Positions 9,347 to 51,780 of a stretch of DNA of 60,050 bases are shown here, piece after piece. The DNA lies in the NCBI GenBank assembly GCA_043807585.1, contig JAZDFV010000006.1, positions 1-60,050 on the forward strand, in the 5' to 3' direction. Made by a program: the position numbers and the translations under genes. How positions within the stretch are numbered: the first letter of the stretch is position 1; the number at the start of each line of letters is the position of its first letter. The notes beneath the pieces are model-generated. The model made no database searches, had not been told where the DNA came from, and worked only from the letters and a program-made list of their open reading frames with translations. Source of the stretch: Candidatus Jorgensenbacteria bacterium (GTDB taxonomy: Bacteria; Patescibacteriota; Minisyncoccia; UBA6257; GWB1-50-10).

Positions 9347-9784
9347 CTATCGAATGTTCTCTCCGGGCTCCACCGGGCGCTCCGGCACGAGAAGCACCGG
9401 ACCTGCCGCATCGCCGGCGGCAAGGAGCATCCCCTGGCTTTCCAAGCCCACTTGCCCTGAGCCGAGTCGCCCTTCGAGTTCCTCAGGGCGACCCTGAGCC
9501 TGCCGAACGGGTCGAAGGGTGAACACCCGCGGTTCAAGGTTCGCGACCACCGCGATCTGTTTCCCCACGAGGGCTTCGGGAGTGTACGCCTTCCCGATGC
9601 CAGCGATAATTTGTCTGACGTCTCTCGCTTGCCCTGAGTTTATCGAAGGTGCTTGCCCTGAGTTTATCGAAGGGCCAAGGTCCACGGAAAGTTTCAATAG
9701 TTTATCCGACCCCTCCACGCGCGCCGCCTCAAGCACCTTCCCGACCTTCAGCTCTATATTTTTAAAATCTTCTATGGAGATCAT
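9347..9784 (-). CDS. tRNA-binding OB-fold protein (Trbp111/MetRS C-terminal/CsaA-like) with in-frame repeat insertions
   Basis: ISIEDFKNIELKVGKV..SDKLLKLSVDLG..RQIIAGI..VVANLEPR..ESQGMLLAA. Confidence 0.9.
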   Translation of the reverse strand: MISIEDFKNIELKVGKVLEAARVEGSDKLLKLSVDLGPSINSGQAPSINSGQARDVRQIIAGIGKAYTPEALVGKQIAVVANLEPRVFTLRPVRQAQGRPEELEGRLGSGQVGLESQGMLLAAGDAAGPVLLVPERPVEPGENIR

Positions 9785-9803
9785 TTGTTTTATCGCACCA
9801 TGC

Positions 9804-11005
9804 CTACTCATACCGCAACGCTTCGGCCGGTTGCATGCTCGCCGCCTGCCGCGCCGGAAGGATGCCCGCGAGCATGCCGGTCACGAACGTAATGAGGAGA
9901 ACGACGAGGAGCCCCAGGTAGTCCAGCGCCGCGAACGAGAAGAGGCCAACCATACCGAATTTCCCGCCGCCGCCCCCACGCCGTAGGCGATGCCGATACC
10001 CAGCGCTACCCCAATGATGCCGCCCACGAGGCCTATCATCCCGGACTCCAGGAGGAAGAGCGAGAGGATGGCATCACGCGAGGCGCCGACGGCCTTCATT
10101 ACGCCGATCTGCTTCGTGCGCTCCAGGACCGAGGTGTACATCGTGTTCATGATGCCCACCGCGCCCACGATGAGCGATATGAGCGCGATGGCAATGAGCC
10201 CGAACTCCACCACCGAAAGCACGCTCCCGATGAGCTGGTTCGCCTTTGCCATGGTGAGCACCGTGAAGTCGGGCACCGCTTTCTGCTTCCCGAGCTCGAA
10301 CTTTATTTGGCGGGCCACCAGGTCGGCGTTCGCGCCAGGGTTTGTCTTCACCATGATGGACATCACCCCCTCGCGCCCCGTGAGGTTGCGGAAGATGGGG
10401 AGGGAAAAGAACGAGGAGTTGTCGTCTTCTTGCACGCCGATGCGGGCCATGATACCGGTCACCGTAACCCGCTTGGATTTTAGGATGATCTCGTCCCCCA
10501 CCCGTATCCTATTTTTGAAAAGTCCGTTCGCGGCAACATACCCAAGCACGATCTCATTCGCATCATCCCCCGACGGCCACGAGCCGGATTCCAATCGTAT
10601 CCCCTGCGATTCCTCAAGGATCGGTTTGGCGTTCCGCCACCGCACCGCGCGCACGAGCATGCTCTGTTTTTCTCCGCGGAACTCCACGTTGAGGGATGCA
10701 ATATCGGCGGGAGACACGTCCTTCACGCCGGGGATCTGCCGGAGCACATCCACGTCCTGCTCTTTGAACTTCTGGCCGCCAATGAAACCAACGACTGGGT
10801 TGGTCTCCTTGCCGGGGAAAACAACGATGAGGTCCGAACCGAACATTTGGAGCGACTTGGAGACCACGTTTTTGATGCCGGACCCGAGCGCAAAGATGGC
10901 CACCACGAGCATGATGCCGATCACTATCCCGAGGACGGTGAGCCAGCTCCGGAGGCGCCGGTGCTGGATGCTTTTCATGACGAGCAAGAAGAATTCTTTG
11001 AACAT
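9804..11005 (-). pseudogene. MacB/FtsX-family ABC permease with a -1 frameshift near the C-terminus
   Basis: RSWLTVLGIVIG and GIMNTMYTSVLERTKQIGVMKAVGA; the canonical end GILPARQAASMQPAEALRYE* lies in the -1 frame after 9959-9965. Confidence 0.85.
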
Positions 11006-11018
11006 GGTATGAAGCGCG

Positions 11019-11885
11019 TTACTCCGTGTACTGCGCCCGATGCGCCCGATGGTCGGCCACCATCTGCCCGTCTTTGAGCGTAATGATCTCGTCCGCCATC
11101 TCCGCAATATCCTTGTCGTGCGTCACGATGACGAGCGTTTTTTTGTGCTTACGGTTCAGTTCCATCAATATCTCCAATATCTTCTGTCCCGTGTGGGAAT
11201 CGAGGTTGCCCGTCGGTTCGTCGCCCAAAATGATGGCGGGGTCGTTCGCTAAAGCGCGGATGAGCGCCACACGCTGCTGCTCGCCGCCTGAGAGCTCCAT
11301 GGGGCGGTGGGTCATGCGCTCCGTAAGTCCCATCTCGCGAAAGCGACCGAGCAGTGTTTCCTCTTTGTGGTCGCGCCCCGCGAACACGAGCGGTATGGCG
11401 GCGTTCTCGAACGCGGTGAGCCACGGAATGAGATTGTACTGCTGAAATACGAAACCGAATGTCTCCGAGCGCAGCTTCGCCGCTTCCTCGTCGGAGAGCG
11501 CCCCCACGTTCTTGCCGCGCACATACACCTCGCCCTTCGTCGGACGGTCCAGGAGCCCCATCATGTTGAGCATCGTGCTCTTCCCCGAACCGGAGGCGCC
11601 GATGATGGAAACGAAGTCCCCCTCCCAGATGTGGGTGTCCAAGCCCCTGAGCACCACGGTCTCCGCCACGCCCATGGTAAAAACCTTCCACACGTCGCGG
11701 AGATCGATGAGCGGGGTTCCTTGGAACTTCTGCGGGTTGCGGTCAAACCGTCCCTGGCACCCGTCGCCGCAGAAGTAGAAGGTGCGGCCCCCGTACGAAG
11801 AGGTGCGCACGTCCGCCGCGCCGTCCAGGTGCATCCCGCAGACGAGATCTACCTTCTCCGGTTCCCTCACGCGTACTTCCTCCAT
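11019..11885 (-). CDS. ABC ATP-binding protein (LolD/MacB-type) with N-terminal YHS domain
   Basis: DLVCGM..YGGRTFYFCGDGCQGRFDRNP (YHS); GASGSGKS, LSGGEQQR, DEPTGNLD, VTHD. Confidence 0.92.
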   Translation of the reverse strand: MEEVRVREPEKVDLVCGMHLDGAADVRTSSYGGRTFYFCGDGCQGRFDRNPQKFQGTPLIDLRDVWKVFTMGVAETVVLRGLDTHIWEGDFVSIIGASGSGKSTMLNMMGLLDRPTKGEVYVRGKNVGALSDEEAAKLRSETFGFVFQQYNLIPWLTAFENAAIPLVFAGRDHKEETLLGRFREMGLTERMTHRPMELSGGEQQRVALIRALANDPAIILGDEPTGNLDSHTGQKILEILMELNRKHKKTLVIVTHDKDIAEMADEIITLKDGQMVADHRAHRAQYTE

Positions 11886-11888
11886 GGA

Positions 11889-16934: not shown

Positions 16935-17058
16935 GCGTCAGTAAGAAAAAGTGTATCACGCGGGCCGCGGAGAGGTCAAACGTACCTGCCCTGAGCCTGC
17001 TTGCGGTGAGCTTGCCGAATCCGCCGAAGGGCCGCCCTGAGCCGAAAACCGTGGCCGC

Positions 17059-17801: not shown

Positions 17802-18185
17802 ATGAATGAATTCAAGGCGCTGCTCCAGCAAGTGGTCCGCGAGACGCTCCACGCCTCTAAACGCTATACGGGGGTCCACATCGAAGAACTCGAGCGCGGC
17901 GACGAAATCGCCATCCGCACGATTAACAGCGAATACCGATGCACGATGGTGGAACCGCGCAAAGGGCTCGCCATAGTAACGAGCACCGGCGGCATTTTCT
18001 CAGCCTCCGATCTTGTCCACCTCGTGGGGAGCTGCATCCTCACGAGCCCCGTCATCGTGCGGTGCGGGTGGCTGGGGCTCGGGTATCCGATCCTCATCGA
18101 GGGGTGCATCACCTCCCCTCTCCAGCGGCTCGCCGTGAACGGCGAAACGCTACTCCCGCGGGTGCCGGACCACGCGACGCAGTAA
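17802..18185 (+). CDS. Hypothetical protein
   Basis: AAGGAGG SD before ATG 17802; beta-rich sequence (IAIRTINSEYR). Confidence 0.65.
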   Translation: MNEFKALLQQVVRETLHASKRYTGVHIEELERGDEIAIRTINSEYRCTMVEPRKGLAIVTSTGGIFSASDLVHLVGSCILTSPVIVRCGWLGLGYPILIEGCITSPLQRLAVNGETLLPRVPDHATQ

Positions 18186-18240
18186 AACACAAAATCGCAG
18201 CACATATGTACTGCGATTTTGATTTCCACCTTGTTCTACT

Positions 18241-18394
18241 ATTCGCGCGAATAAGACCATAAGGAATCAGCTGCGGGACATTCCGACATTCTGCAGAATG
18301 TGAGAATGTCGTTTTCTGGCCAGAAAACCACTCGCGGGAATCAGAGAAATAACGAGAGGGGGTATATCGGCTAATTCGTGCGAATTAGCCGATA
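18241..18394. repeat. Dispersed palindromic block (GACATTCCGACATTCTGCAGAATGTGAGAATGTC plus TATCGGCTAATTCGTGCGAATTAGCCGATA)
   Basis: Recurs at about 24201-24330, 25140-25225 (partial), 26524-26700 and 28581-28740. Confidence 0.9.
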
Positions 18395-18465
18395 GTGGAA
18401 AAAGCAACTCCGCCGCGGGAGGGTATTTTTTATTTTTAAAGGTTTTATTTTAGATTTACCTGACC

Positions 18466-18494
18466 TTGATTTTTTACTCAAAATAATGTAGTAT
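18466..18494 (+). promoter_or_regulatory. Sigma70 promoter of the AT-rich operon
   Basis: TTGATT-17 nt-TAGTAT, 9 nt before ATG 18504. Confidence 0.6.
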
Positions 18495-18503
18495 TTAAAA
18501 ACC

Positions 18504-19415
18504 ATGGAGATTGCAATGATAAATCGCGACCACAAATTGTGGGAGGGAGGAGATAGGAGAAAGATAGAAAATCTTATTGCTGCACTTCAGAAAATGGGAG
18601 TAAATGCTTTTTATACTTGTGATAATGAAATAAATTTCAAGGCGGACGTTTATCACTTATTCCACATGTCATATGAAACCGCTTATAAGGCCTTTTTAAA
18701 TATCAAAAAAAAGAAACTAAAACTGGTAGTCAGCGCCATCTATTCCGGGGACCGAATTCCGCATGAATGTCAGCAAGAAATTATTGATTATGCATCAAAA
18801 GTGATATTCATGTCCGAAGGCGAGCTCTCTTTTGTACGTAACAACATAAAGGTTCCTCAAAACAAAGTTTCTTACATTAAAAATGGGGTTTCAAGAATAT
18901 TTGATACTGAATTAACGAAAGGCAAATACGTACTGTGCGTTGGCCGCATTCAACCAATGAAAAACCAGCTCAATCTGGCCATAGCATGTAAAAACCTCGG
19001 CTTCGACCTAAAATACGTGGGGGAAATTATCGATCAAGGTTATGCTTCTAAAGTATTGAATACTTGGGGAGAATGGCTGCCTAATAGACCACAAGAAGAA
19101 TTGGTTGAATTATACAAAGAGGCTCAAGTCGTGGCCTGTGTCAGTGAACACGATATTCAGCCAAATTGTGTTCTGGAGGGTGGATTATCCGGCGCAAACA
19201 TCGTACTTACGGACAAGTCAAAGTCATTTTTAGATGGATTCCCTAATATCTGGATATGTAAAACCGATCCCGAAAGTATTAGGGAAGCCGTTGTTTCGGC
19301 CTGGAATGCGCCTAAAAACGGGGAGTTAAAAAATATTTTTAGAACATGGACCTGGGAAAAAGCCGCGACAAAGCTAATAGGGGTTTATAACGAGGTATTA
19401 AAAAGCCCCATATGA
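18504..19415 (+). CDS. Glycosyltransferase family 4 (GT-B)
   Basis: GGD, NGV, CVGRIQPMKNQ, ELVELYKEA..PNCVLEGGLSG. Confidence 0.85.
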   Translation: MEIAMINRDHKLWEGGDRRKIENLIAALQKMGVNAFYTCDNEINFKADVYHLFHMSYETAYKAFLNIKKKKLKLVVSAIYSGDRIPHECQQEIIDYASKVIFMSEGELSFVRNNIKVPQNKVSYIKNGVSRIFDTELTKGKYVLCVGRIQPMKNQLNLAIACKNLGFDLKYVGEIIDQGYASKVLNTWGEWLPNRPQEELVELYKEAQVVACVSEHDIQPNCVLEGGLSGANIVLTDKSKSFLDGFPNIWICKTDPESIREAVVSAWNAPKNGELKNIFRTWTWEKAATKLIGVYNEVLKSPI

Positions 19416-20017
19416 CCATAGGCGACCTAAAAAGCTATGCATACTTATTTAAAAAGATTTTAACCATCCCTATCAGGGGAATAAACTTTTTAAGTTTTAA
19501 AAATGCACCGGATTTTGAAGGGAAATTTTTTCGCGTCACTTTTAAAAATAAAAACAAGTGTCTAAAACGCATAATTAAAAACGAGCATGCAGATATTATT
19601 TTGGATTTAGCAAATGTCGTCGTTGTTACCGTCCTGCTTGAAGAAAAAAATCTTACTCCAAATGTTTATTCAATTTATATAGATGCGCCATCAAATTATT
19701 TCGCGATATGCGTAGGTAAGGCTGAAGATATATTAATCAATACGGAAAAATATCGTTCAGGTTTTTCGCATTTTTCGTCATGCATCGCAGATTTAGCCGA
19801 AAAATGGAAAATCCGAAGACTCCCGTACGACGATTATCCTTATGACAATACATTTTTATTGGAAATCAAAAATAAAAGTAATCTGGGAATTTTTCTTGGA
19901 AAAATCGTATTATTAGATATTGATCCGAAGTGCTATTCAAATAATAAGTTAATAAAATTTGCAGCTCTAATCTTTAAAAATAGAATTTATCGTAATTTAA
20001 ATAAGTTTAAAAAATAG
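19412..20017 (+). CDS. Hypothetical protein, possibly kinase-like fold
   Basis: NLTPNVY and KSNLG..KIVLLDID loosely resemble kinase catalytic/Mg-binding loops; ATGA overlap with the GT gene. Confidence 0.5.
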   Translation: MTIGDLKSYAYLFKKILTIPIRGINFLSFKNAPDFEGKFFRVTFKNKNKCLKRIIKNEHADIILDLANVVVVTVLLEEKNLTPNVYSIYIDAPSNYFAICVGKAEDILINTEKYRSGFSHFSSCIADLAEKWKIRRLPYDDYPYDNTFLLEIKNKSNLGIFLGKIVLLDIDPKCYSNNKLIKFAALIFKNRIYRNLNKFKK

Positions 20018-20028
20018 AAGAAAAAACA

Positions 20029-20823
20029 ATGGGCCAAAATAAGAAAGTATTGAATATAACGCCCCTAACAAATAGGGTTGAATGCGGGAGCAAATTGGCG
20101 CTGGAATTATGCGAAACCATACATCTTCATTATAGGGATTTAAGAATTGAGATGGACGGAAAAACGTTGAAGATACTAACCGAATGCCTTAAAGACGGGG
20201 CGAATAAACACTTGTTAAATCCCAAATTAAGCGGAACCGACTTTTTAATGTTGAGCGATAAAAGGCTCGGAACAAATAAGATTAATAATGACAAACTTAA
20301 AGTCGAATTACTTAAAAACAATTTGATTCATATTCATTACAGGAATATACGTTTGGAATTAACTATTAGGAATTTTATAAAGTTATTCGACGGCCTCTCT
20401 AGGGCTTTTAATAAACTGATATTGGACGAATATATTTCTAATAAAAACGACGAATTTGAAGAAAAGTATATTGATATAGATAAAATTAACCCCTACGATA
20501 TTGTTCACAAGGAAGATTTGAATTCTCCCTATGGTTATACAAGCTGGAATGCTCAAGAGGTTTTAACGCATGAAAAGGGCATAAAAATTATCGCGAAGTT
20601 AATAAAAAATGGGCATAAATTATTGCCCGTATCAGTGATTCCGATCAGATCGAGGGGCAAACATTACAGTGGCCCCATCAAAAAGGGGCAGAAGTATCAG
20701 AGATTGGACGGCTTTAAAAGATACATTGCATGGAAAAGATTGGGTTATAAAAAAATGTTATGCCATGTTTACAAAAAGGCGAAACCGGGCAATCAAAGGT
20801 ATAAGCCGTTGGTTATCGGCTAA
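20029..20823 (+). CDS. Protein with duplicated IHLHYR/IHIHYR N-terminal unit and ParB/Srx-like C-terminal domain
   Basis: LELCETIHLHYRDLRIEM and VELLKNNLIHIHYRNIRLEL; KYQRLDGFKRYIAWKRLG matches the ParB-N DGxxR motif. Confidence 0.6.
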   Translation: MGQNKKVLNITPLTNRVECGSKLALELCETIHLHYRDLRIEMDGKTLKILTECLKDGANKHLLNPKLSGTDFLMLSDKRLGTNKINNDKLKVELLKNNLIHIHYRNIRLELTIRNFIKLFDGLSRAFNKLILDEYISNKNDEFEEKYIDIDKINPYDIVHKEDLNSPYGYTSWNAQEVLTHEKGIKIIAKLIKNGHKLLPVSVIPIRSRGKHYSGPIKKGQKYQRLDGFKRYIAWKRLGYKKMLCHVYKKAKPGNQRYKPLVIG

Positions 20824-20826
20824 AAT

Positions 20827-21612
20827 ATGGAACGTATGAGAAATAGGTCTAAAAAAACAATAATTATCACCGGAGCTGGCTCTGGAATAGGAAGGGCCAT
20901 AGCTATACGTTTGGCAAAAGACGGATATTCAATAGGATTAATCGGACGGCGGGCTGGTAACCTTAAGCAAACAGAAAAGATAATTAAAAAAATTACCCCT
21001 GACGTCATTTACAAAACAGCGGACGTAAGAAAAAAGGACCAAGTTTATAAAGCGGTTGAATATATCTCTTCTCATTTAGGTAAATTATCAGGCGCAGTTG
21101 CGGCCGCGGGAATCGGCGGTTCCAATAAGCCGACGAGGCACGATCGCTGGGACAATGTGATCAAAACCAATCTTTATGGCACGTATTATGCCTTATCGGC
21201 GGCAGTACAATACATGAAGAATGACAATGAACCGAAACAGCTGATATCAATAGCATCTCTTTTGGCGAGAATTGGAGTAAAAAATTATACGGCGTACTGC
21301 GCTTCAAAGTCGGGAATCCTGGGGCTTGTGAGAGCGCTTGCTATCGGACTGGCCGACAAAGGCATAAGAGTAAACGCCATAAGCCCGGGCTGGGTGGATA
21401 CAAAAATGGCAAAGAGAGGAATGAATAGGTTGGCTCGAATTAATAATTTGACCTACGAGAATGCGAGAAAAAACGCCCTAAACGCCGTTCCGTTAAAAAG
21501 AATGAGCTCCCCCGAAGAGATCGCCAACGTAGTATCTTTTCTGTTCGGAGAAGGAATTTCGGGATTCACGGGGCAAAATTTTGATATAAGTAATGGTTCA
21601 TGGATGGAATGA
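20827..21612 (+). CDS. SDR family NAD(P)-dependent oxidoreductase
   Basis: TGAGSGIG, YCASK, VNAISPGWVDT. Confidence 0.93.
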   Translation: MERMRNRSKKTIIITGAGSGIGRAIAIRLAKDGYSIGLIGRRAGNLKQTEKIIKKITPDVIYKTADVRKKDQVYKAVEYISSHLGKLSGAVAAAGIGGSNKPTRHDRWDNVIKTNLYGTYYALSAAVQYMKNDNEPKQLISIASLLARIGVKNYTAYCASKSGILGLVRALAIGLADKGIRVNAISPGWVDTKMAKRGMNRLARINNLTYENARKNALNAVPLKRMSSPEEIANVVSFLFGEGISGFTGQNFDISNGSWME

Positions 21613-21623
21613 TCAAGTAATAA

Positions 21624-22304
21624 ATGAAACACAATAGGCCGAAAATAAAAATCTGTTGCATAAAATCCAGGGAAGAACTGGCTACCGTTGTAAAATACGG
21701 GGTAGATTGCGTCGGATTCGTCTCAAAAATGCCGAGCGGGCCGGGTATTATTTCCGACAGGGAAATACGTGACATCGCAAAATATGCCCCTGAACACGTA
21801 GACACATTTTTATTGACGAGCCATTTAGACCCAAAAAAAATCATTGAGCAACAACAATTTTGCAAAACAAAAACAGTGCAGCTTTGTAATCCCTTAAAAA
21901 TCAACGACTTGAAGAAGTTGAAAGAGGCCCTTGTCGGCGTAAAGATTGTCGGAGTGACGCATGTTCTGAATGAAGAAAGTATCCAGAAAGCAGTGGAGTT
22001 ACAGGATTTTGTTGATGCCATACTATTGGATACGGGCAATCCCTGCGGGGCATCTCCCGAATTAGGAGGAACTGGTAGGACCCATAACTGGGATGTTTCA
22101 AAAAAAATATGCCAACACGTTACAAGCCCCGTATATCTTGCGGGTGGGTTAAATCATAAAAATGTTATTGCCGCGATAGAACACGTTGATCCCTACGGCA
22201 TAGATCTATGTTGCGGAGTGAGAACCAATGACAAATTAGACGAAAAAAAGCTACAACTGCTCTTAGGGGCCATAGAGGATTATTTTCACAAAAATACTGA
22301 ATAA
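21624..22304 (+). CDS. trpF: Phosphoribosylanthranilate isomerase (TrpF)-family protein
   Basis: KIKICCI, LLDT, LGGTGRTHNW, LAGGL..NV, PYGIDLCCGV; no other trp genes nearby. Confidence 0.85.
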   Translation: MKHNRPKIKICCIKSREELATVVKYGVDCVGFVSKMPSGPGIISDREIRDIAKYAPEHVDTFLLTSHLDPKKIIEQQQFCKTKTVQLCNPLKINDLKKLKEALVGVKIVGVTHVLNEESIQKAVELQDFVDAILLDTGNPCGASPELGGTGRTHNWDVSKKICQHVTSPVYLAGGLNHKNVIAAIEHVDPYGIDLCCGVRTNDKLDEKKLQLLLGAIEDYFHKNTE

Positions 22305-22720
22305 TGTTTATTCACAAAAACCGAATTACTGTCAGCACCGACGGCCAGGGATTGTACAAGATAACCGATCTCGTTCAAAAGAAAATTGAAGAGGTAAAAA
22401 TACCAAACGGGATATGTTATTTATTCGTTCCTCATACCAGTGCTAGCATCATCATACAAGAACTCGATCCTGCGGCAAAAAACGATATGGAATATTTTTT
22501 GGACAAACTGGTGCCCGAAAATGACGACAAGTACCGGCATCGAATGGAGGGACCCGACGACCCCTCCTCTCATGTTAAGGGTTCATTGTTAGGAAACTCT
22601 CAGATTGTTTTTATTGAAAATAACAAGCTATTGATGGGGTCTTGGCAAGAAATATATCTTTGGGAACATCGGCGCGACAAAAGAAATCGTGTAATTGATA
22701 TAAGAATTATCAGTGAATAA
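22304..22720 (+). CDS. yjbQ: YjbQ family protein (UPF0047)
   Basis: FVPHTSAS, YRHRMEGPDD..SHVKGSLLG, MGSWQEIYLWEHR. Confidence 0.9.
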   Translation: MFIHKNRITVSTDGQGLYKITDLVQKKIEEVKIPNGICYLFVPHTSASIIIQELDPAAKNDMEYFLDKLVPENDDKYRHRMEGPDDPSSHVKGSLLGNSQIVFIENNKLLMGSWQEIYLWEHRRDKRNRVIDIRIISE

Positions 22721-23579: not shown

Positions 23580-23746
23580 ACTCTACCCGCACACCATTCC
23601 CCTATTCGCCAGCCTCGACTAGACGTCGAGTCTAGGCGGGCGCGCTTGCCCATCCGTAGTCCATCCGAAGCTTCAGCGTAGGAGGACGAAGGAGGGCTTG
23701 CCTCGCCGTAACCGGGTGAAGGCGGGAATTAGAGAAGGTAAATGAT

Positions 23747-24142: not shown

Positions 24143-24403
24143 AAATTTACTTGCTTATATTCTACCACGGAAACGAAAACGGCCTGGCGGCGGGTAAACC
24201 ATCGGCTAATTCGTGCGCCTGCCCGCCCATGGCGGGAATTAGACCATAAGGAATCGGCTGCGGGACATTCCGACATTCTGCAGAATGTGAGAATGTCGTT
24301 AAAACAGCGGGGGCGGCGGGGTGCTTTAGTCAATTTTTCATCGGCATACGCCAAAATCCGGATAATTTGTCGGCATGCGGAAATAGGGACTATAATTTTA
24401 ATA

Positions 24404-25099: not shown

Positions 25100-25270
25100 C
25101 GACGACGCCCGTTCTATCCCAAAGCGCCGCGTGCGGAACTATCGGCTAATTCGTGCGCCTGCCCGGCCGTAGCCGGGCGAAGGAGGGAATTAGCCTATGG
25201 AACCATTCGCGCGAATTAGACCATGGAGGAACGACAACCGACGCGGGAGGGTAAGTAAATACACGCTAGA

Positions 25271-26432: not shown

Positions 26433-26704
26433 ACATCACCTCGTATGTTGTGAGTGGATTTGCTGGATAAAGAATACCACGCGATATGGTATCCGTCAAC
26501 AGACAGGCAGCGGGCAGGTGGACTATCGGCTAATTCGTGCGCTTGCCTCGCTGTAGCCGGGCGAAGGAGGGAATTAGCCCATAAGGAATCAGCTGCGGGA
26601 CATTCCGACATTCTGCAGAATATGAGAATGTCGTTAAGATGGCTGGGGCGGAGGGGTGCTACAGTTAACTGTAGCACCCGGGGGGTGGTGGGAGGGTCGA
26701 TTGT

Positions 26705-27690: not shown

Positions 27691-27876
27691 AAATTTACTT
27701 GTAGTGAGCCCCGTCGAACTATTCTACCCCAAAACGCCGCGAATTGGAGGGTACTACACTATAGTGTAGTACCTTGGCGATGGTGGGAAGGTTGAGGGAA
27801 GAAGATAAGAGATGGTGAGAGCGGGGGCGGGTGGCCCTTCGACAGGCTCAGGATTAAATTTGCGGGTTATTTTTTT

Positions 27877-27946
27877 AAATTTACTTGCCCCGTAGTTATG
27901 CCGAAGGCATATACTAGCGGGGTTCTCCTAATTTTTTGTTGGCCGA
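27877..27946 (-). repeat. Cassette leader module (TCGGCCAACAAAAAATTAGGAGAATAAATTT) with a hairpin insertion and no gene behind it
   Basis: Same module at 28511-28564, 29722-29799 and 30402-30425. Confidence 0.85.
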
Positions 27947-28510: not shown

Positions 28511-28741
28511 AAATTTATTCTCCTAATTTTTTGCTTGCCCCGAGCTTATCGAGGGGTTGGCCGATCCTTCTTATTCTACCATTCCCGCCAGAGGTGGGCA
28601 GGCACGCAAATTAGACCATAGAAATCGGTTGCGGGACATTCCGACATTCTGCAGAATGTGAGAATGTTATTAATAATGGCGGGGGTGGTGGGGTGCTTCG
28701 ATTAATCGAAGCACCCGGGGGGTGGTGGGAGGGTCGATCGT

Positions 28742-29721: not shown

Positions 29722-29756
29722 AAATTTACTTGTAGTGAGTTTATCGAACTATTCGC

Positions 29757-30401
29757 CTAATCTGTGGTGAGCCCTGTCGAACCATTTTTTGTTGGCCGAT
29801 TATTTATATCCTCGTCCTTCTTCCATTGGTTAAATGCTCTCTCAACCTCTTTTTTTTCACCTTCCGACATCTGTTGAAAAATTAAAGGTTCGCCCGAATC
29901 TCTTTTGGTCATTGTTTCAAAATAATCTACAAGAATCTTTCGCTTTCCTTCCTTTGTTTTTAAATCTAAGCCCTCATATTTCAATCCATCTATACGGCCA
30001 TGACTAATATCATTTCTTAAATCCTTAATTTTATGAAATAGTTTAACGTGGCTATTGGTACCAAACATATCTTCATAAATTTTTATTCTATCACCAAAAT
30101 AAACTGTTATCGGATCATAATCTGAATCATCGGGGTCAATTTTTGCTATATCTACACCATGTTTTTCTTTTATAATTTTAATCGCTTTTTCATTGGAAGG
30201 ACCATATTTCTTCGCCATTTTCCATGCCTCACAAAGCACTTGATCAAGGTCGTGCTCCGTCATAAAACTAAGCCAAAAAACGAAAGAAACCGCATCGGCT
30301 TGCTCTTTATCAAGATGAAGTGCAGCATCAGAAATTATTCTTGCAAGTTCTTCATTGCTCGCACTGTTGATTTTTTGTTTTAGCAATTCAAATGAGTCCA
30401 T
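29757..30401 (-). CDS. Putative HEPN-like protein
   Basis: FGDRIKIY..IKDLRNDISHG contains the Rx4H HEPN-type motif; helical. Confidence 0.55.
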   Translation of the reverse strand: MDSFELLKQKINSASNEELARIISDAALHLDKEQADAVSFVFWLSFMTEHDLDQVLCEAWKMAKKYGPSNEKAIKIIKEKHGVDIAKIDPDDSDYDPITVYFGDRIKIYEDMFGTNSHVKLFHKIKDLRNDISHGRIDGLKYEGLDLKTKEGKRKILVDYFETMTKRDSGEPLIFQQMSEGEKKEVERAFNQWKKDEDINNRPTKNGSTGLTTD

Positions 30402-30444
30402 ATTCTCCTAATTTTTTGTTGGCCAAGTAGGTGGTCACGTCTAT

Positions 30445-33516: not shown

Positions 33517-33519
33517 ACT

Positions 33520-36385: not shown

Positions 36386-36401
36386 GAAGACCGACTTTCT
36401 T

Positions 36402-37688: not shown

Positions 37689-37818
37689 GAAGCCAAACTT
37701 CCGAAGAGCGGGTTCAATGTTTGGGAAGTCGGACTTCCTGGCGGAGAGTGGGAGAAAATCAATATTTGGGAGGTCGAACTTCCTTAGGGAGGTTCGACCT
37801 CCGGGTACGACTTCCGGG
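37689..37818. repeat. Cluster of short GGAAGTCGGACTTCC-type palindromes
   Basis: Five variants; about 68 bp shared with 39754-39821; others at 31-45 and 41706-41802. Confidence 0.85.
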
Positions 37819-38220: not shown

Positions 38221-38352
38221 GAAGAAGCTGGGGAGAAGCGTGTTGTGCACTCCCCTACAGTTCCACTATTTCTTCCCACGGCAGGCCCTTCGGCGGGTTC
38301 GATAGACTCACCGCAGGCAAGCTCAGGGCACAAACCTCTCGATTGTTCAAAA

Positions 38353-39719: not shown

Positions 39720-39900
39720 CGACATCGGATGTCAGCAGAAGGGAGGGAAAGATCAATGTTAGGAAGTCGGACTTCCTGGCGGAGAGGAAGGGAAGATCAA
39801 TATTTGGGAGGTCGAACTTCCGAGGAGGGAGCTCAATGTTTAGACATCCGATGTCCGACAGATGGGAAACGGACTTAATGTTTGGGACATCGGATGTCGG
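39720..39900. repeat. Cluster of GACATCGGATGTC and GGAAGTCGGACTTCC palindromes
   Basis: Three GACATC(G/C)GATGTC and two GGA(A/G)GTCG(G/A)ACTTCC units. Confidence 0.85.
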
Positions 39901-39911: not shown

Positions 39912-41669
39912 CTACAGGCCGGGGACGGGGGTCGGAATTTGTCCCCCCGACCAGCACACCGCAGAGCCGTCAATCTTTACAGCGCAGGAAGCGTTGTCGG
40001 CGAGAGAGGCGGTCGTACCAGCGCCCAACCCAATTGGTTGGACAGGGGTATATCTATTGAGGATCGTACCATCGCCAGTCGTACCACTGCATCCCCAACA
40101 AGCAACTGAACCATCGGTCTTTAAAGCGCAACTGTGCATAAAGCTGGTAGCGATAGCGACCGTTGAGCCGGGACCTAAGCCAGTAACTTGAATTGGAGTT
40201 CCTGCACCTTCTTTTGTGCCATCTCCTAATTGCCCGCAATAATTTTGTCCCCAACCAACAACCGAGCCATTTGCCTTTAGGGCAAAGGTGGTTTTCCAGC
40301 CGACGGTAAGGGATCTGATCGCGCCCAGATTTTGGGAGATCTTGACCGGAGCATAAATCCCGATAGATCCAATAGGATGAATTTCTCCCCAGCAGACAAC
40401 CGAATTATCCGTTTTTATGGCGCAGGTGCCATTGTAGGTTGAGTAAAGAGCAACGGTTGATTTGGGGCCTAAACCGGAAACCTGGGTCGGAAATAATCTG
40501 ATAGTTTCTGTTTTGTCGCCATGGCCTATTTGGCCGCCGCCGCCGGAGCCCGTATCGTTGCTTCCCCAGCAGACCACCGAGCCGTCGATTTTCAAGGCGC
40601 AGGCATGCATCCTCCCCATAGAAATCGAAGCGGTTGTGCCGGGGCCCAATCCGAAAACCTGGGTTGGTTCTGTTTTGGCAACCAATGTGCCGTCACCCAA
40701 TTGACCGTAAGAGTTGTTTCCCCAACAGAGGGCCGTACCATCGGTTTTTACGACGCAAATTCTATTATTATCGAAACTGGTAATGCTTGCCACATTGGTT
40801 AAGCCGGGGACAGCGACAAAGCCACCCGTACCAGTGGGTTTGAGACCCATATTCATGAAACTCCCCGAATCGTACCGACAGTAAACCAAACCGTTTTTTG
40901 TCAGAGCGCAGAGAACCACATTTTCATCACCAGTGACCCGGACTATGACGCTGACGGATGAAACAACAAATTCTTTATTCTCAACGGTTGGCGTGCCTGT
41001 TTTCTCAGAAACAACGGGTGTTGCGGGAACAGCCGCAGGTTTTGTTGAAACACTTTCCGGGGCAGGAGATATTGTTATTGGCTGCGTTTTGCAGGCGCCA
41101 AGGGCGTCGCCATGGGCCAGGTGCGCCTCGAGCGCGGACTCGGAGATTTCGAGCGATTGTTTGTTGCCGGGGTTCTCGGGCGGGAGGTGGCAGACAACAA
41201 CTTTCTTTTCCGTGCCGCCGGCCAAATAGTCGTTCATCCTTTCCCGCGTGGTCGGGTCGATCTTGCCGGTCGCGGGCAAATTCTCCCTCTCCTGGAACTT
41301 CTTGACCGCCTTCTCGGTCAGGGGGCCGTAGTAGCCCGTCACGAGCCCCTCCGGGTAGATCTCCGAAAATTGCTTGAGGAATTTTTGCACCTCCTTGACC
41401 TCGCTGTCGGTGATGCCCTTGTAGAGGTTTTTGGTTATTTTCACCTCTTCCCGCACTGCCGCCACTTCGGATCTCAATTCGGTGAGCTGGTCCTGCAGGA
41501 GCTTTATCTGGTTCCTCAACTGCTCTATGGTGGCGAGCAATGCTTCGGTAGAAGACTGCTCCGCGGGGGCCTGCGCAACCGCGAGCGCCGCGGGGGCGGA
41601 CACGAGAACGCCGAGGGTCAGGGCGGCGACTATGAGGAGAACGGCCGGGGCGCCGGGGAGCTTCATCAT
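39912..41669 (-). CDS. Secreted protein: coiled coil, peptidoglycan-binding domain, RCC1/BLIP-II repeats
   Basis: Signal peptide; VKEVQKFL..TGYYGPLTEKAVKKFQ; repeated HACALKxDGSVVCWG..GQLGDG. Confidence 0.88.
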   Translation of the reverse strand: MMKLPGAPAVLLIVAALTLGVLVSAPAALAVAQAPAEQSSTEALLATIEQLRNQIKLLQDQLTELRSEVAAVREEVKITKNLYKGITDSEVKEVQKFLKQFSEIYPEGLVTGYYGPLTEKAVKKFQERENLPATGKIDPTTRERMNDYLAGGTEKKVVVCHLPPENPGNKQSLEISESALEAHLAHGDALGACKTQPITISPAPESVSTKPAAVPATPVVSEKTGTPTVENKEFVVSSVSVIVRVTGDENVVLCALTKNGLVYCRYDSGSFMNMGLKPTGTGGFVAVPGLTNVASITSFDNNRICVVKTDGTALCWGNNSYGQLGDGTLVAKTEPTQVFGLGPGTTASISMGRMHACALKIDGSVVCWGSNDTGSGGGGQIGHGDKTETIRLFPTQVSGLGPKSTVALYSTYNGTCAIKTDNSVVCWGEIHPIGSIGIYAPVKISQNLGAIRSLTVGWKTTFALKANGSVVGWGQNYCGQLGDGTKEGAGTPIQVTGLGPGSTVAIATSFMHSCALKTDGSVACWGCSGTTGDGTILNRYTPVQPIGLGAGTTASLADNASCAVKIDGSAVCWSGGQIPTPVPGL

Positions 41670-41847
41670 CTTCAATTATAGCACCTAGAGATGGGGTTAA
41701 TATTCGGGAAGTCGGACTTCTGGGGATAGAGGGGTTAATTTCCAGAGGTTTCACCTCCTTGAGAGGTGAAACCTCTCCGCAATGTTGGGAAGTACGACTT
41801 CCGGGGAACGGATCAGCCCTTCGACTACGCTCAGGGCGGGCCGCGTT

Positions 41848-42324: not shown

Positions 42325-42533
42325 GGGAGCAGGCCTCGGCGCGCGCCAGAGGAGGGCGCGCGAATTCATCGGTATCGTTAAAATCCTACTCCTTCGGCTT
42401 TGCTCAGGACAAGCCCTTCGACGAGCTCCCGCCTTCGTCCTGAACTGCATATTGAAGGACTACGGCCGGGCAAGCAGGGCAGGCCACTTCGACTATGCTC
42501 GGGACAACGCCTTCGGCTACATTCAGGAAAAAC

Positions 42534-44625: not shown

Positions 44626-44721
44626 GGTTCCATTGTACCACACCCGTCAAGCCCCCGCCTCCCTACACTACCTGCCCTGAGCAGTTCGGCGTGCTCACTG
44701 TAAAACTTGCCGAAGGCCTCT

Positions 44722-49779: not shown

Positions 49780-49900
49780 GCTCCCCTGGCCGGACGACGC
49801 TGTAGACCCTGAGCATGCCGAAGGGTTAGAACCCTCCTTCGCTAAAGCTACGGACGGGCAGGCCTGCCTGCGCAGGCAGGCCCGTTTGGCCACTGTATAA
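49780..49900 (+). repeat. att-like repeat A (interrupted by three hairpin insertions)
   Basis: Reduces to gctcccctggccggacgacg-ttagaacc-cgtttggcc when the insertions are removed. Confidence 0.6.
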
Positions 49901-50144: not shown

Positions 50145-50248
50145 AACTTCAGTGTAGCATATGCAGTTCTAACGTCTCACTTGGGTATACAAAAAACACC
50201 AATAAACATTGGTGATTTTTTGTTGGTTTACACTGAGCCTGTCGAAGT

Positions 50249-50313
50249 GCTCCCCCCGCTGGACGCGTTTAGGACTCTAAACTGGATTGAAGTAGTGAAA
50301 GAGCTTGCGATGG
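50249..50313 (+). repeat. att-like repeat B
   Basis: 57/65 identical to 51211-51275. Confidence 0.85.
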
Positions 50314-50449: not shown

Positions 50450-51163
50450 ATGATACGGATGGAATGGACACGCTGCTTTGGTGCCTGTCCGGTCTGCGGC
50501 AACTTGGACACGATTTCGAGCGATGGTATGCTCGACCGCGTCAGCGTCCGCTGCGAAACCTGCGGTACAACGTGGAAGAACTGGATCCAAGAGCTATGGT
50601 ACCCTGTAACACTGCCGGTTGAGGTAAGTATCACGCATCGTGGTGCACGGGTTGAGATTCACCGAGTAGGGGTGATTCCGCACATGCGCTTGATCGTTTC
50701 GGTCCTAAATGCCGCCCTGATGGCCCGCTTCAAGCTGAAACTTTGTTTCCTAACCGAGGGAGGTGTCAGCGGCACTTGGCGGCACGAATCTATCGAGCTC
50801 ACGAATATCAGCGACGGTGTTAGCTTCGGACTATTCGACGATCACCAGTTCCCCGAGAATCCGAGGTGCCGGGAGGTGCTGAGGTGGTACGGTGAGCTTC
50901 TGTACACCCTGTTCCTTGACGAGCTCACAATCGGTGGAACAACACGGCGCGGAGAAATCCTTCGGCTTACTGACGATACGTCCGGTGCCGACAACGCGAA
51001 GATTCTCCTGTATGGTGCGATAAAGAAAAAAACCGGCAGCGAGGGATTTTCAAAATCGGTATTTTCGAAGCTCGACGATACGTTGTCGTGCTTCGGTGGT
51101 ATGTATCTCGCGGGCCTCTCAGACGAGGATATCGTACGGCTGTACGTTCCGCCACGCTTATGA
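50450..51163 (+). CDS. Hypothetical protein with N-terminal zinc ribbon
   Basis: AAGGAGG SD; CPVC..CETC; terminator at 51174-51203. Confidence 0.7.
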   Translation: MIRMEWTRCFGACPVCGNLDTISSDGMLDRVSVRCETCGTTWKNWIQELWYPVTLPVEVSITHRGARVEIHRVGVIPHMRLIVSVLNAALMARFKLKLCFLTEGGVSGTWRHESIELTNISDGVSFGLFDDHQFPENPRCREVLRWYGELLYTLFLDELTIGGTTRRGEILRLTDDTSGADNAKILLYGAIKKKTGSEGFSKSVFSKLDDTLSCFGGMYLAGLSDEDIVRLYVPPRL

Positions 51164-51210
51164 GTGCACAATGGAGCCGGTTCCACGCAATGGACCGGCT
51201 CTTCTCATTA

Positions 51211-51275
51211 GCTCCCCCTGCTGGACGCGTTTAGAACTCTAAACTGGGGTGAAATAGCAAAAGAGCTCGCGATGG
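51211..51275 (+). repeat. att-like repeat C
   Basis: Direct repeat of 50249-50313. Confidence 0.85.
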
Positions 51276-51341
51276 CCACGGCGTTTGAGTAAACAAAAAG
51301 CCACCTTTGACCGAAGGTGGCGACGGGAGCAGTTAATCTGC

Positions 51342-51671
51342 TCAACTTTTATATATCTTTGGATTTCTCATATACCATTCTCGAAATTCCCATACGACAA
51401 GATTTATGAAATACCAAAGGGAGTTTGCGAGTGCAAGCCCGCATATAAAGCCAATCCACACCGAAGCACCGACAACCGTCAATGCATCGAAGTTATTGGG
51501 AAGAAATAGCCGATTCTGGAAGAGCACAATGGCAGATAATAATCCCAATACAAATATTCCACCAAGCATCCCTCTTGGGGTTGAGCCTTGGTAATCGTAA
51601 TCAGATTTGGGTGGATCAACTTGCGCCCAAAAAACAAGGAACAAAACGGTATCTTTCAATAATCGCTTCAT
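51342..51671 (-). CDS. Small membrane protein
   Basis: AGAGG SD; hydrophobic helices. Confidence 0.6.
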   Translation of the reverse strand: MKRLLKDTVLFLVFWAQVDPPKSDYDYQGSTPRGMLGGIFVLGLLSAIVLFQNRLFLPNNFDALTVVGASVWIGFICGLALANSLWYFINLVVWEFREWYMRNPKIYKS

Positions 51672-51780
51672 GGTAACCTCTTTATGAAATTGTGAATGAA
51701 AAACTACCTAGTTTTAACTAAGTAGAACATAGCATACTCTGTGCTATCCGTCAAGTGCTGTGTCCTGAGCTTGTCGAAGG

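What the first reader, a model, noticed from the sequence alone, without database searches (positions are those of the whole stretch)
9451..51780. Family of 19-39 nt C(C/T)TG-hairpin insertion elements, with empty and filled sites in one window
Seen: the palindrome CTAATTCGTGCG^AATTAG is empty at 18371-18388. It carries three different hairpins at the same phosphodiester bond in other copies (24218-24236, 25158-25187, 26542-26571) and at the symmetric position on the other strand (28584-28602). The leader AAATTTA^TTCTCCTAA^TTTTTTG^TTGGCC is empty at 30402 but filled at 27698-27721, 27884-27922, 28534-28556, 29729-29751 and 29761-29784. Nearly all inserts begin CTTG or CCTG (one TCTG), followed directly by a hairpin, and none duplicates the target. 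One class is stem-GAG-N5-6-CGA-stem with co-varying 4-bp stems (tagt/acta, cccc/gggg, tggt/acca, ccct/aggg, cact/agtg). More copies lie near 16985, 23645, 27836, 38286, 41817, 42391, 42485, 44672, 49800, 50230 and 51760, some nested. Known: a tetranucleotide at the 5' foot of a hairpin and insertion without target duplication are hallmarks of HUH/Y1 systems (IS200/IS605 TnpA, REP/RAYT). Inference: an ultra-small, structure-defined, non-autonomous mobile element family mobilised in trans. The GA..GA core could form tandem sheared G.A pairs as the recognition feature.
Basis: partly seen in the sequence, partly recalled or inferred. Interest (0 to 1): 0.88.

Follow-up and report, generated by a model that had tools for sequence, protein, structure and literature searches.

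The report
Miniature hairpin insertion elements, mobiliser unknown
About a hundred tiny DNA hairpins (roughly 23-27 bases each) are scattered through this very small bacterial genome, even in-frame inside essential genes, and they come and go between related species, but the enzyme that moves them was not identified.

Summary
The window's genome (769 kb, 97.6% complete) holds 98 perfect hairpins of the form 4-bp stem / GAG / 5-6 nt / CGA / 4-bp stem. Nine control cores gave 3-24. Stems co-vary (28 types), while the G.A/A.G mismatch core never varies. Empty and filled sites exist in the window, genome-wide, and against a same-genus genome. Strict counts there are 79 versus 19 copies, and only 1 of 21 comparable elements is shared.

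New here: the elements also sit in-frame in housekeeping genes (EF-G, SHMT, MnmA, RecG, TypA, YchF, a tRNA-binding protein). All 9 clean coding-gene absences differ by a multiple of 3.

Orientation shows no bias relative to transcripts. That argues for a DNA-level insertional element, not an RNA motif.

The proposed Y1/RAYT mobiliser is not supported. The two RAYT-like genes are flanked by other palindromes. Among 41 relatives, only 3 of the 12 hairpin-rich genomes carry any Y1 gene.

The same core occurs in many phyla with other 5' tags. It probably relates to the published "CGTC-tagged" REP superfamily, which has no known transposase.

Verdict: a new variant of a known kind (REP-like repeats). 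The mechanism is open.

The parts
9451..9521 (.). Composite of three adjacent or nested class-1 hairpins: perfect at 9470-9488 (-), near-perfect at 9492-9510 (+), plus an outer CTTG-CCCT-GAG...CGA-AGGG. It sits inside the tRNA-binding-domain gene 9347-9811 (-) and adds about 23 residues in frame.
   Evidence: Absent from the same-genus ortholog, 69-nt difference. The tRNA_bind domain spans 131 residues for 95 profile positions.
9627..9674 (+). Two tandem 24-nt units (G)CTTG-CCCT-GAG-TTTAT-CGA-AGG(T/G) in the same gene. They encode PSINSGQA twice.
   Evidence: A 45-nt gap in the G001 ortholog.
16985..17031 (+). Nested pair. The outer element is CCTG-CCCT-GAG-CCTG^C-CGA-AGGG. An inner CTTG-CGGT-GAG-CTTGC-CGA-ATCCG (17000-17023) is inserted in its loop.
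18371..18388 (.). Empty copy of the palindromic target CTAATTCGTGCG^AATTAG. This palindrome is itself a REP-like repeat family: 23 matches in this genome and 9 in G001 to its left arm with at most 1 mismatch, a few of them probably chance.
23645..23737 (+). Array of larger CYTG-tagged hairpins (class 2: CYTG-CCCxxC-CGTAG...CGAAGG-xGGG).
   Evidence: (D5).
24218..24236 (+). Insert CCTG-CCCGCC-CAT-GGCGGG in the palindrome.
   Evidence: DNA fold -7.1 kcal/mol, z -3.2.
25158..25187 (+). Insert CCTG-CCCGGC-CGTA-GCCGGG-CGAAGGAGGG in the palindrome.
26542..26571 (+). Diverged copy of the 25158 insert (CTTG...), at the same position.
28584..28602 (-). Insert CCTG-CCCACC-TCTG-GCGGG in a variant, inverted palindrome copy.
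27698..27721 (+). CTTG-TAGT-GAG-CCCCGT-CGA-ACTA. It lies between a Shine-Dalgarno-like GGTAGAA and TAAATTT-ATG of gene 26926-27690 (-).
27835..27853 (-). Near-perfect class-1 hairpin TCCT-GAG-CCTGT-CGA-AGGG.
27884..27922 (+). 39-nt insert CTTG-CCCCGTAGTTATGCC-GAA-GGCATATACTAGCGGGG in a decayed leader copy.
   Evidence: DNA fold -11.8 kcal/mol, z -4.9. RNA z -2.2.
28534..28556 (+). CTTG-CCCC-GAG-CTTAT-CGA-GGGG in the leader of the NUDIX gene 27959-28510 (-).
29729..29751 (+). CTTG-TAGT-GAG-TTTAT-CGA-ACTA, between the Shine-Dalgarno site and the start codon of gene 28975-29721 (-).
29761..29784 (+). TCTG-TGGT-GAG-CCCTGT-CGA-ACCA in the same leader.
30402..30424 (.). Empty leader copy (TTCTCCTAATTTTTTGTTGGCC) upstream of gene 29757-30401 (-).
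38286..38328 (-). Nested pair. The outer element is CCCT-GAG-CTTG^C-CGA-AGGG. An inner CCTG-CGGT-GAG-TCTAT-CGA-ACCCG lies at 38294-38317.
41817..41836 (-). CCCT-GAG-CGTAGT-CGA-AGGG.
42390..42530 (-). Array of at least four class-1 and class-2 elements. It includes a perfect CTTG-TCCT-GAG-CAAAGC-CGA-AGGA at 42390-42409.
44671..44717 (.). Imperfect outer element (+) with a perfect inner hairpin CAGT-GAG-CACGC-CGA-ACTG at 44682-44700 (-).
49807..49870 (.). CCCT-GAG-CATGC-CGA-AGGG (+, 49807-49825), followed by a class-2 element on the minus strand.
50231..50249 (+). CACT-GAG-CCTGT-CGA-AGTG.
51763..51781 (+). Near-perfect TCCT-GAG-CTTGT-CGA-AGGG.
59584..60036 (+). IS200/IS605-type TnpA (Y1 transposase) at the contig end. 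It is a candidate trans-acting enzyme that was examined and not linked to the hairpins.

Best explanation
These are miniature, non-coding, REP-like DNA insertion elements.

Anatomy. The unit is a 19-20-nt hairpin with a short 5' tag, 23-27 nt in all. The hairpin has:
- a 4-bp stem that co-varies;
- an invariant TGAG/CGAA box, which would place G.A and A.G opposite each other;
- one G-C pair;
- a small loop of a few recurring types (CYTGY, TTTAY, CNNNGY).

The tag is CTTG or CCTG in 26 of 98 copies and GACATTC in one subfamily.

Behaviour. Copies have been gained and lost at the DNA level since this species split from its congener. They lie in intergenic DNA and in 5' leaders. They lie at one fixed position of another palindromic repeat and in the loops of one another (nesting). 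They form head-to-tail arrays. Where the added length is a multiple of three, they lie inside housekeeping genes.

Shown: the family itself, its covariation, empty and filled sites, turnover at orthologous sites, in-frame coding insertions, and the lack of orientation bias relative to transcripts.

Inferred: the hairpin forms in single-stranded DNA, and a structure-specific enzyme acting in trans recognises it through its mismatch box and cuts and joins it without target duplication (a 'peel and paste' style). That enzyme is not identified. The Y1/RAYT genes of this genome are not convincingly tied to it.
For: Family is real and non-random:
- 98 perfect hits against 3-24 for nine control cores.
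- Covariation with stems left free: 26 of 42 fully paired, and 0 of 2000 shuffles reached the observed pairing.
- Perfectly paired cores are far rarer than the mismatched one: GAG..CTC 12 of 1266, CGA..TCG 24 of 1420. The mismatch box is therefore maintained.

Empty and filled sites:
- Leader and palindrome in the window.
- The palindrome family is filled at the same position in 4 window copies and in 3 unrelated G001 loci. Every insert there starts with C[CT]TG.
- The 27-nt GACATTC unit is filled 4 times and empty 15 times at ...TCTAACGGGGTG^CTCGRTTTT.

Turnover against the same-genus genome G001:
- 79 versus 19 strict copies.
- Of 21 G000 elements with both flanks found in G001, 1 is shared.
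- 10 elements at 9 coding sites are cleanly absent, with differences of 21, 27, 45, 69, 42, 27, 39, 51 and 156 nt, all multiples of 3.
- 1 intergenic module is absent, and at 9 elements other sequence stands in place.
- In reverse, of 6 G001 sites, 1 is shared, 4 are absent in G000 and 1 is unreliable.

Host genes are bona fide: SHMT, EF-G, MnmA, RecG, Fmt-like, YchF, PPDK-like, TypA, tRNA_bind.

DNA-level rather than RNA-level: intergenic copies are 28 sense and 23 antisense to the nearest transcript.

Distribution:
- Patchy among relatives, 0 to 49 copies in 41 genomes, with reversed-pattern controls of 0-3.
- The same 17-mer core was found in 119 stretches from many phyla. Of 137 occurrences, 113 extend the stem by at least one further pair, against about a quarter expected by chance.
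Against: - No transposition event was observed, and no cognate enzyme was found.
- Only 3 of the 12 hairpin-rich relatives have a Y1 gene.
- The hairpins are thermodynamically marginal under standard parameters: 0 to -4 kcal/mol, z not significant.
- Some 'independent' filled sites may be duplicated modules rather than separate insertions. Examples are 25158 and 26542 at 92% identity and the GACATTC promoter-proximal modules.
- No consistent target sequence emerged (sites read ...TTA^TT, ...TAA^TT, ...TTG^TT, ...GCG^AA, GAG^C).
- Gene locations rest on a crude home-made gene caller.
- No read data could test within-population polymorphism.
Confidence: 0.65

Rival explanations
1. One reading: a REP class mobilised in trans by an HUH/Y1 enzyme of this genome (IS200 TnpA or a RAYT). 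The enzyme would recognise the 5' tetranucleotide plus hairpin on single-stranded DNA.
For: - The anatomy (tag at the 5' foot of a hairpin, no target duplication, insertion into loops of other hairpins) matches what is described for IS200/IS605 ends and REPs (background passages of PMC6006769; PMC3733652, abstract and sections 6 and 16).
- This genome has three Y1-family genes and the highest copy number of the 41 genomes (49). Its congener has none and only 16.
- All five leader inserts share one orientation.
Against: - The RAYT-like gene on contig C9 is flanked by direct copies of a different 25-nt palindrome (13 copies in the genome).
- The RAYT-like gene on contig C7 is flanked by inverted copies of another palindrome (10 copies). 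By my reading of its sequence it has Phe where the catalytic Tyr is expected (the motif position is recalled, not tested).
- 9 of the 12 genomes with at least 10 copies have no PF01797 match. These include one in 3 contigs at 98% completeness and one in 10 contigs at 99%.
- No strand bias remains beyond what coding constraint explains: genic copies are 15 sense and 32 antisense, against about 19 and 28 expected from the TGA stop in one sense frame.
Confidence: 0.22
2. The hairpins are functional cis-elements kept by selection, and they spread mainly by duplication of the modules that contain them. Candidate roles are terminators, tRNA 3'-trailer or processing signals, protein-binding sites, and devices in leaders that bring the Shine-Dalgarno site and start codon together.
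For: - Many copies abut tRNA 3' ends in this genome and in G026.
- The GACATTC subfamily is always sense to, and 23-150 nt upstream of, the next gene, beside a TATAAT-like box.
- Two genes carry a hairpin between the Shine-Dalgarno site and ATG.
- The core is conserved across phyla.
Against: - There is no overall orientation preference relative to transcripts (28 to 23).
- 47 of 98 copies lie inside genes in either orientation and in all frames.
- Several close relatives have none.
- The strand transcribed in the leaders carries U.C/C.U instead of G.A/A.G, and it is not predicted to fold better than shuffles.
Confidence: 0.08
3. There is no transposition. The copies arise by local replication errors (slippage, template switching at quasi-palindromes) and by gene conversion between repeats. 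Hairpin complementarity is then restored by intra-strand repair.
For: - Head-to-tail arrays occur with fixed 24- or 28-nt periods.
- Paralogous modules exist in the window.
- Intra-hairpin correction would explain easy stem covariation (inference).
Against: - The same unit appears at unrelated single-copy loci, inside conserved genes, with sharp boundaries.
- Correction would erase the G.A/A.G mismatches, which are instead invariant.
- The same core is found in distant phyla.
Confidence: 0.05

Closest known systems
REP / RAYT (REPtron) systems, e.g. the GTAG-tagged REPs of Proteobacteria
   Same: Short (20-40 nt) hairpin repeats with an unpaired tetranucleotide at the 5' foot. They occur in many copies, as inverted dimers and clusters, occasionally inside genes, and leave no target duplication.
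   Different: The tag is CTTG/CCTG (or GACATTC, CTCG) rather than GTAG. The stem is only 4 bp plus a conserved tandem mismatch box. No RAYT gene is flanked by these hairpins, and abundance does not follow Y1 genes in relatives.
CGTC-tagged palindromic repeats (Di Nocera et al. 2013, PMC3733652; I read the abstract, sections 6 and 16, and found passages; its figures are not held)
   Same: - A REP superfamily with no dedicated transposase, found in several phyla and mostly in Alphaproteobacteria.
- Tag variants TGTC and CCTC, then AT as the first stem pairs, and 4-5-nt loops.
- Inserted in genes as 20-30 residue additions.
- The core found here occurs in Caulobacter, Novosphingobium and Sphingomonas preceded by CCTCAT, TGTCAT or CGTC, and in alphaproteobacterial megaplasmids.
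   Different: In this genome the tag is not CGTC. The stem is 4 bp rather than 8-9 bp, there is no AT start, and the tail is TT or CT rather than CCA. Identity of the cores could not be checked because the consensus figure is not available.
Rickettsia palindromic elements (RPE; Ogata et al., known to me and cited in PMC3733652; the papers themselves are not held)
   Same: Palindromic repeats inserted in-frame in genes of a reduced genome, adding surface peptides to otherwise conserved proteins.
   Different: By recollection most RPEs are far longer than the 23-27-nt unit here (the ~100-150 nt figure is recalled). PMC3733652 does equate RPE-4 and RPE-6 with small CGTC repeats. The lineage is also different.
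Very small mobile repeated elements of cyanobacteria (Elhai et al. 2008; seen only in reference lists, content recalled)
   Same: Roughly 20-30-nt dispersed repeats. They are nested in one another, interrupt conserved sequence, and have no transposase assigned.
   Different: The sequences are different, and a conserved G.A/A.G hairpin core is not known there. No direct comparison was possible.
IS200/IS605 ends and their transposase-less derivatives
   Same: Subterminal hairpin with an adjacent tetranucleotide, single-strand logic, and no target duplication.
   Different: Those elements have two different ends and a defined target tetranucleotide. Here there is a single hairpin and no consistent target.

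Membership tests
REP/RAYT system | Short hairpin with a conserved unpaired tetranucleotide at its 5' foot, in many copies | tested here: met
   98 perfect copies. Of these 98, 17 carry a CTTG tag and 9 carry CCTG. The tag differs from the canonical GTAG.
REP/RAYT system | A cognate RAYT gene flanked by the same REPs (REPtron) | tested here: not met
   The two RAYT-like genes are flanked by two other palindromes. The IS200 TnpA has its own hairpin.
REP/RAYT system | Co-occurrence of the repeat family with a Y1 gene across related genomes | tested here: not met
   3 of the 12 genomes with at least 10 copies have PF01797. 12 of the 29 with fewer copies have it. Most of these genomes are draft assemblies.
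REP/RAYT system | Predominantly extragenic, as inverted doublets (REPIN/BIME) | tested here: inconclusive
   51 of 98 copies are intergenic although my gene caller covers 79% of the genome. A few head-to-head pairs exist (C1 77454/77477, C9 41915/41934, C9 106657/106677, C4 4892/4912), but most copies are single or head-to-tail.
CGTC-tagged REP superfamily | Terminal CGTC (or TGTC/CCTC) tag | tested here: not met
   Tags in this genome are CTTG, CCTG, GACATTC and others. CCTCAT, TGTCAT and CGTC tags are seen with the same core in other phyla.
CGTC-tagged REP superfamily | Stem of 8-9 bp starting with A-T and T-A, loop of 4-5 nt, CCA tail | tested here: not met
   Here the stem is 4 bp plus the mismatch box, the loop is 5-6 nt, and the copy is followed by TT or CT. 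The published consensus figure could not be seen.
CGTC-tagged REP superfamily | No associated transposase; copies inside genes | tested here: met
   (no transposase link). (in-frame copies in 10 identified proteins).
IS200/IS605-derived miniature element | Two distinct subterminal hairpins (left and right ends) and insertion 3' of a fixed tetranucleotide | tested here: not met
   There is a single hairpin per unit, and the flanks at empty/filled sites differ.
Intrinsic terminator or other oriented RNA signal | Fixed orientation relative to the transcript; stable RNA stem followed by a U run | tested here: not met
   28 sense and 23 antisense. RNA folds are not better than shuffles for the class-1 copies in leaders. 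No Rfam family reached its threshold in the window.
Tandem sheared G.A hairpin (structural motif) | 5'-Y-GA-R-3' on both strands forming sheared G.A pairs | not testable with these tools
   The sequence context TGAG/CGAA fits in 79 of 98 copies. The energy models used do not credit such pairs. NMR or melting experiments are needed.

The most novel reading that the evidence does not exclude
The GAG/CGA hairpin is a pan-bacterial, structure-defined single-strand DNA element that needs no dedicated transposase. Its invariant mismatch box would be the handle for a widespread host replication or repair enzyme, or for a still unrecognised nuclease family. That would explain three things: why the 'CGTC-type' repeats never had a transposase, why hairpin-rich minimal genomes lack Y1 genes, and why the same core carries lineage-specific tags. 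In these roughly 700-gene genomes it remodels essential proteins and translation leaders.
Probability: 0.15. Interest if true: 0.8.

Novelty: new variant of a known kind. Interest (0 to 1): 0.55.

Why it matters
REP-like repeats have been known for decades. For a whole superfamily of them, however, no mobilising enzyme is known (conclusion of PMC3733652).

Here the same kind of hairpin is abundant and turning over in genomes of only about 0.5-0.8 Mb, with about 670 genes by my own crude gene call. Close relatives hold from 0 to about 50 copies. That makes the search for the responsible gene by phylogenetic profiling unusually tractable.

The finding also shows that very reduced genomes tolerate repeated in-frame insertions of 7-50 residues in EF-G, TypA, YchF, SHMT, MnmA and RecG, as well as hairpins between the ribosome-binding site and the start codon. 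This is relevant to protein annotation of such organisms, where spurious 'PSTSSGQA' or 'LRQAQG' peptides will appear, and to how their proteins evolve.

I found no paper describing this family in such small genomes. Supplementary files and the figures of the closest paper could not be seen.

Tried and rejected
- **Rfam.** The scan of the window at gathering thresholds gave no family. There are no tRNA genes in the window.
- **Sequencing runs.** One run was found, holding 6% of the sampled words. Laying it gave only short contig fragments that do not span any element. Neither assembly support nor population polymorphism could be tested.
- **Y2/IS91-type transposase.** I recalled that IS91 targets CTTG/GTTC, so I searched PF04986. 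It gave no match, but the control genomes were silent too, so the result is uninformative.
- **GIY-YIG.** There are four small genes in this genome. Two sit next to hairpins and tRNA genes. Such genes occur in 40 of 41 relatives, including hairpin-free ones, and one hairpin-bearing genome has only a UvrC-sized match. They are rejected as a discriminating candidate, not excluded.
- **Replication-strand bias.** The GAG strand lies on the C-rich strand 51 to 29. The excess comes from genic copies and is explained by the stop codon in one sense frame.
- **Thermodynamic support for the hairpins.** It is weak.
- **Target consensus.** None was found.
- **Peptide-word literature search.** It gave nothing relevant.
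- **Papers not held.** Elhai 2008 and Ogata 2002 are not held.
- **Taxon name.** The taxon could not be named. 'CPR-sized' is my inference from genome size and completeness.

Full report
**What is there.** The window is a whole contig (C6) of a 768,659-bp genome in 15 contigs, rated 97.6% complete. That size is typical of the ultra-small bacterial lineages; this is my inference, since no name was available.

The commonest element (class 1) is a 4-bp stem, GAG, a 5-6-nt loop, CGA, and the complementary 4 bp. A short tag usually precedes it. On the coding (minus) strand the 'leader' of the finding reads GGCCAACAAAAAATTAGGAGAAT(AAATTT)ATG. It is the ribosome-binding leader of several neighbouring genes (a methyltransferase, a NUDIX protein and two genes of unknown function). 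Two of these genes now carry a hairpin between the Shine-Dalgarno site and the start codon.

**Is it more than chance?** Genome-wide there are 98 perfect class-1 hairpins (109 if loops of 4-7 nt are allowed). A test that does not presuppose pairing counted all 1570 GAG-N5/6-CGA cores. Of these, 98 (6.2%) have four complementary flanking pairs. Seven permuted cores gave 0.5-1.0%. Even the fully Watson-Crick cores gave only 0.9% (GAG..CTC, 12/1266) and 1.7% (CGA..TCG, 24/1420).

With the tag C[CT]TG and the core fixed and the stems free, 26 of 42 matches pair perfectly. That is 134 of 168 cells paired against 87.0 +/- 5.5 after shuffling, and 0 of 2000 shuffles reached the observed value. Twenty-eight different stems occur (CCCT 27, GGCT 15, TCCT 11, TGGT 9 and so on). 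The T before GAG and the A after CGA hold in 79 of 98 copies. The loops fall into a few types (CTCAGT 15, TTTAT 7, CTTGC 6, CCTGT 5, CTTGT 5, CAAAGT 5).

So the stem co-varies and the mismatch box is invariant. That is the signature of a recognised structure. Standard nearest-neighbour models nevertheless give only 0 to -4 kcal/mol for the class-1 units, no better than shuffles. The sheared G.A idea is plausible from the Y-GA-R context (recalled chemistry) but untested.

**Evidence that copies are inserted and lost.**

(i) In the window, the leader is empty once and filled at three different bonds in other copies.

(ii) The palindrome CTAATTCGYGCG^AATTAG is itself a dispersed repeat. That call listed 23 matches in this genome and 9 in the same-genus genome G001 to its left arm with at most 1 mismatch. 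Not all of them are full palindromes, and a few are probably chance. It is filled at exactly the same position in four window copies and at three unrelated loci of G001. Every insert begins with CCTG or CTTG, and one contains a nested class-1 hairpin.

(iii) A 27-nt unit, GACATTC plus GGCTGAGCTCAGTCGAAGCC, is present 4 times and absent 15 times between ...TCTAACGGGGTG and CTCGRTTTT. The same unit is nested in the loops of other hairpins and sits in frame in genes.

(iv) I fetched the whole same-genus genome (508,792 bp). It has 19 strict class-1 hairpins against 79 here. For 21 elements both flanks could be placed in G001:
- One hairpin is shared (in the SHMT gene, with a different loop).
- Ten elements at nine coding sites are cleanly absent.
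- One intergenic module is absent.
- At nine elements G001 carries other sequence, in some cases a different repeat at the same spot. In EF-G, for example, G001 has a GATT-type repeat where this genome has a hairpin.

In the reverse direction, of six G001 elements with both flanks placed, one is shared, four are absent here and one placement is unreliable.

Caveat: some 'filled' copies are surely duplicates of one another (25158 and 26542 are 92% identical).

**Coding insertions.** The nine clean coding-gene differences are 21, 27, 45, 69, 42, 27, 39, 51 and 156 nt, all multiples of three. The window's own example is the tRNA-binding-domain gene at 9347-9811 (-). It carries PSINSGQA twice, plus a roughly 23-residue block that the ortholog lacks. 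Its Pfam domain is stretched to 131 residues over 95 profile positions.

Other hosts are SHMT, EF-G, MnmA, RecG, a formyltransferase, YchF, a PPDK-like enzyme, TypA/BipA and an oxidoreductase. By my own crude gene call (79% of the genome called coding), 47 of 98 hairpins are genic and 51 intergenic. The family is therefore enriched in, but not confined to, non-coding DNA.

**DNA element or RNA signal?** Intergenic copies are sense to the nearest transcript 28 times and antisense 23 times. Genic copies are 15 sense and 32 antisense. This is close to the roughly 19 to 28 expected because one sense frame contains TGA. An apparent bias towards the C-rich strand (51 to 29) disappears once this is allowed for.

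The strand transcribed in the leaders carries pyrimidine mismatches and is not predicted to fold. No Rfam family matches. Some subfamilies may have been co-opted. The GACATTC units are always sense and just upstream of a TATAAT-like box and a gene. Many copies in this genome and in G026 abut tRNA 3' ends. The family as a whole, though, behaves as DNA.

**Who moves it?** The genome encodes one IS200-type TnpA (window 59584-60036) and two distant RAYT-like proteins of 230 and 241 residues.
- The contig C9 gene is flanked by direct copies of ATTAACGACTTACGATGTCGTTAAT (13 copies genome-wide).
- The contig C7 gene is flanked by inverted copies of TTTTCCGAGGCGAAACCTCCGAAAA (10 copies).

Each therefore looks like its own small REP system, distinct from the hairpins in question.

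Across the 41 genomes sampled from the family and order, a pattern independent of the outermost stem pairs (YCTGAG-N5/6-CGAAGR) occurs 0 to 49 times, with reversed-pattern controls of 0-3. PF01797 occurs in 15 genomes. Only 3 of the 12 genomes with at least 10 copies have a Y1 gene, against 12 of the 29 with fewer. Hairpin-rich genomes without a Y1 gene include one in 3 contigs and one in 10 contigs. Draft genomes can miss mobile genes, so this weakens rather than kills the Y1 model.

Small GIY-YIG genes are nearly universal (40 of 41). The Y2 search was uninformative. I therefore leave the enzyme unassigned.

**Wider distribution and what is known.** These species span Chloroflexota, Cyanobacteria, Proteobacteria, Bacteroidota, Actinomycetota, Nitrospirota, Planctomycetota, Acidobacteriota and several candidate phyla.

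By my estimate a 17-mer would give on the order of a hundred chance matches in that collection. However, 113 of the 137 occurrences extend the stem by at least one more pair. The 5' flanks are also strongly patterned: GTTCRN 28, YSTCAY 18, GGTC 14, CYTGY 11. In G026 the tag is CTCG. The core also occurs, unannotated, in 21 plasmid records, chiefly alpha- and betaproteobacterial replicons, many of megaplasmid size.

The closest description in print is the 'CGTC-tagged' REP superfamily (PMC3733652; I read the abstract, sections 6 and 16, and found passages). Its features are tags CGTC/TGTC/CCTC, AT as the first stem pairs, 4-5-nt loops, residence mainly in Alphaproteobacteria, copies inside genes, and 'apparently no dedicated transposase'. 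The CCTCAT and TGTCAT flanks I see in Caulobacter and the sphingomonads fit that description. The consensus figure is not held, however, and the copies in this genome fail the tag, stem-length and tail criteria.

Four literature searches found nothing on such elements in ultra-small genomes.

**Verdict.** The finding is a real and lively family of miniature hairpin insertion elements. It is a new variant of the REP-like kind, not a new category. The proposed Y1/RAYT mechanism is not supported. A trans-acting, structure-specific single-strand DNA enzyme remains the most economical mechanism, and I hold that part at well under even odds.

Noticed in passing
Genome-wide; in the window e.g. 1206, 13906, 58918 (positions): A 12-13-nt motif YTCTAACGGG(A/G)T occurs 112 times in this genome and 85 times in the same-genus genome. 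It often runs straight into a start codon (...CTCTAACGGGATG). It also occurs as an inverted pair that forms a terminator-like hairpin followed by CTCGRTTTTATA. It is possibly a lineage-specific expression signal.
   Followed up: partly
Contigs C5 2186-2437, C15 83028-83219, C9 132458-132790, C3 43687-43941 of the window's genome: Four small GIY-YIG genes (77-110 aa). Two sit in the loop of long inverted repeats of the TCTAACGGGG type. One is bracketed by a 17-nt direct repeat of a tRNA 3' end, as if it had inserted into the tRNA gene.
   Followed up: partly
Contig C9 33709-34454 and contig C7 3055-3858 of the window's genome: Two RAYT-like genes, each flanked by its own palindromic repeat family (13 and 10 copies). 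The C7 protein appears to have Phe in place of the catalytic Tyr.
   Followed up: partly
Window 36226-37686: Dense arrays of roughly 25-nt periodic repeats of the type GATTKAYGCKGAT. The same repeat type sits inside the EF-G gene of the same-genus genome, at the site where this genome has a hairpin.
   Followed up: no
Window 37710-37796, 39748-39834, 41693-41734: Five copies of a 42-nt repeat containing the palindrome GGAAGTCGGACTTCC, in pairs about 2 kb apart.
   Followed up: no
Window 18000-24000, 30000-36000, 52000-60050: Low-GC islands (38-42% against about 59% elsewhere). They hold glycosyltransferase-like genes, and at the end of the window a large serine recombinase next to the IS200 TnpA. 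The hairpin-rich variable region 24-30 kb lies between two such islands.
   Followed up: no
Window 39948-40759: Six copies of a 41-nt repeat spaced 138-177 nt apart inside ORF 39912-41675 (-). This is probably a repeat-domain protein.
   Followed up: no
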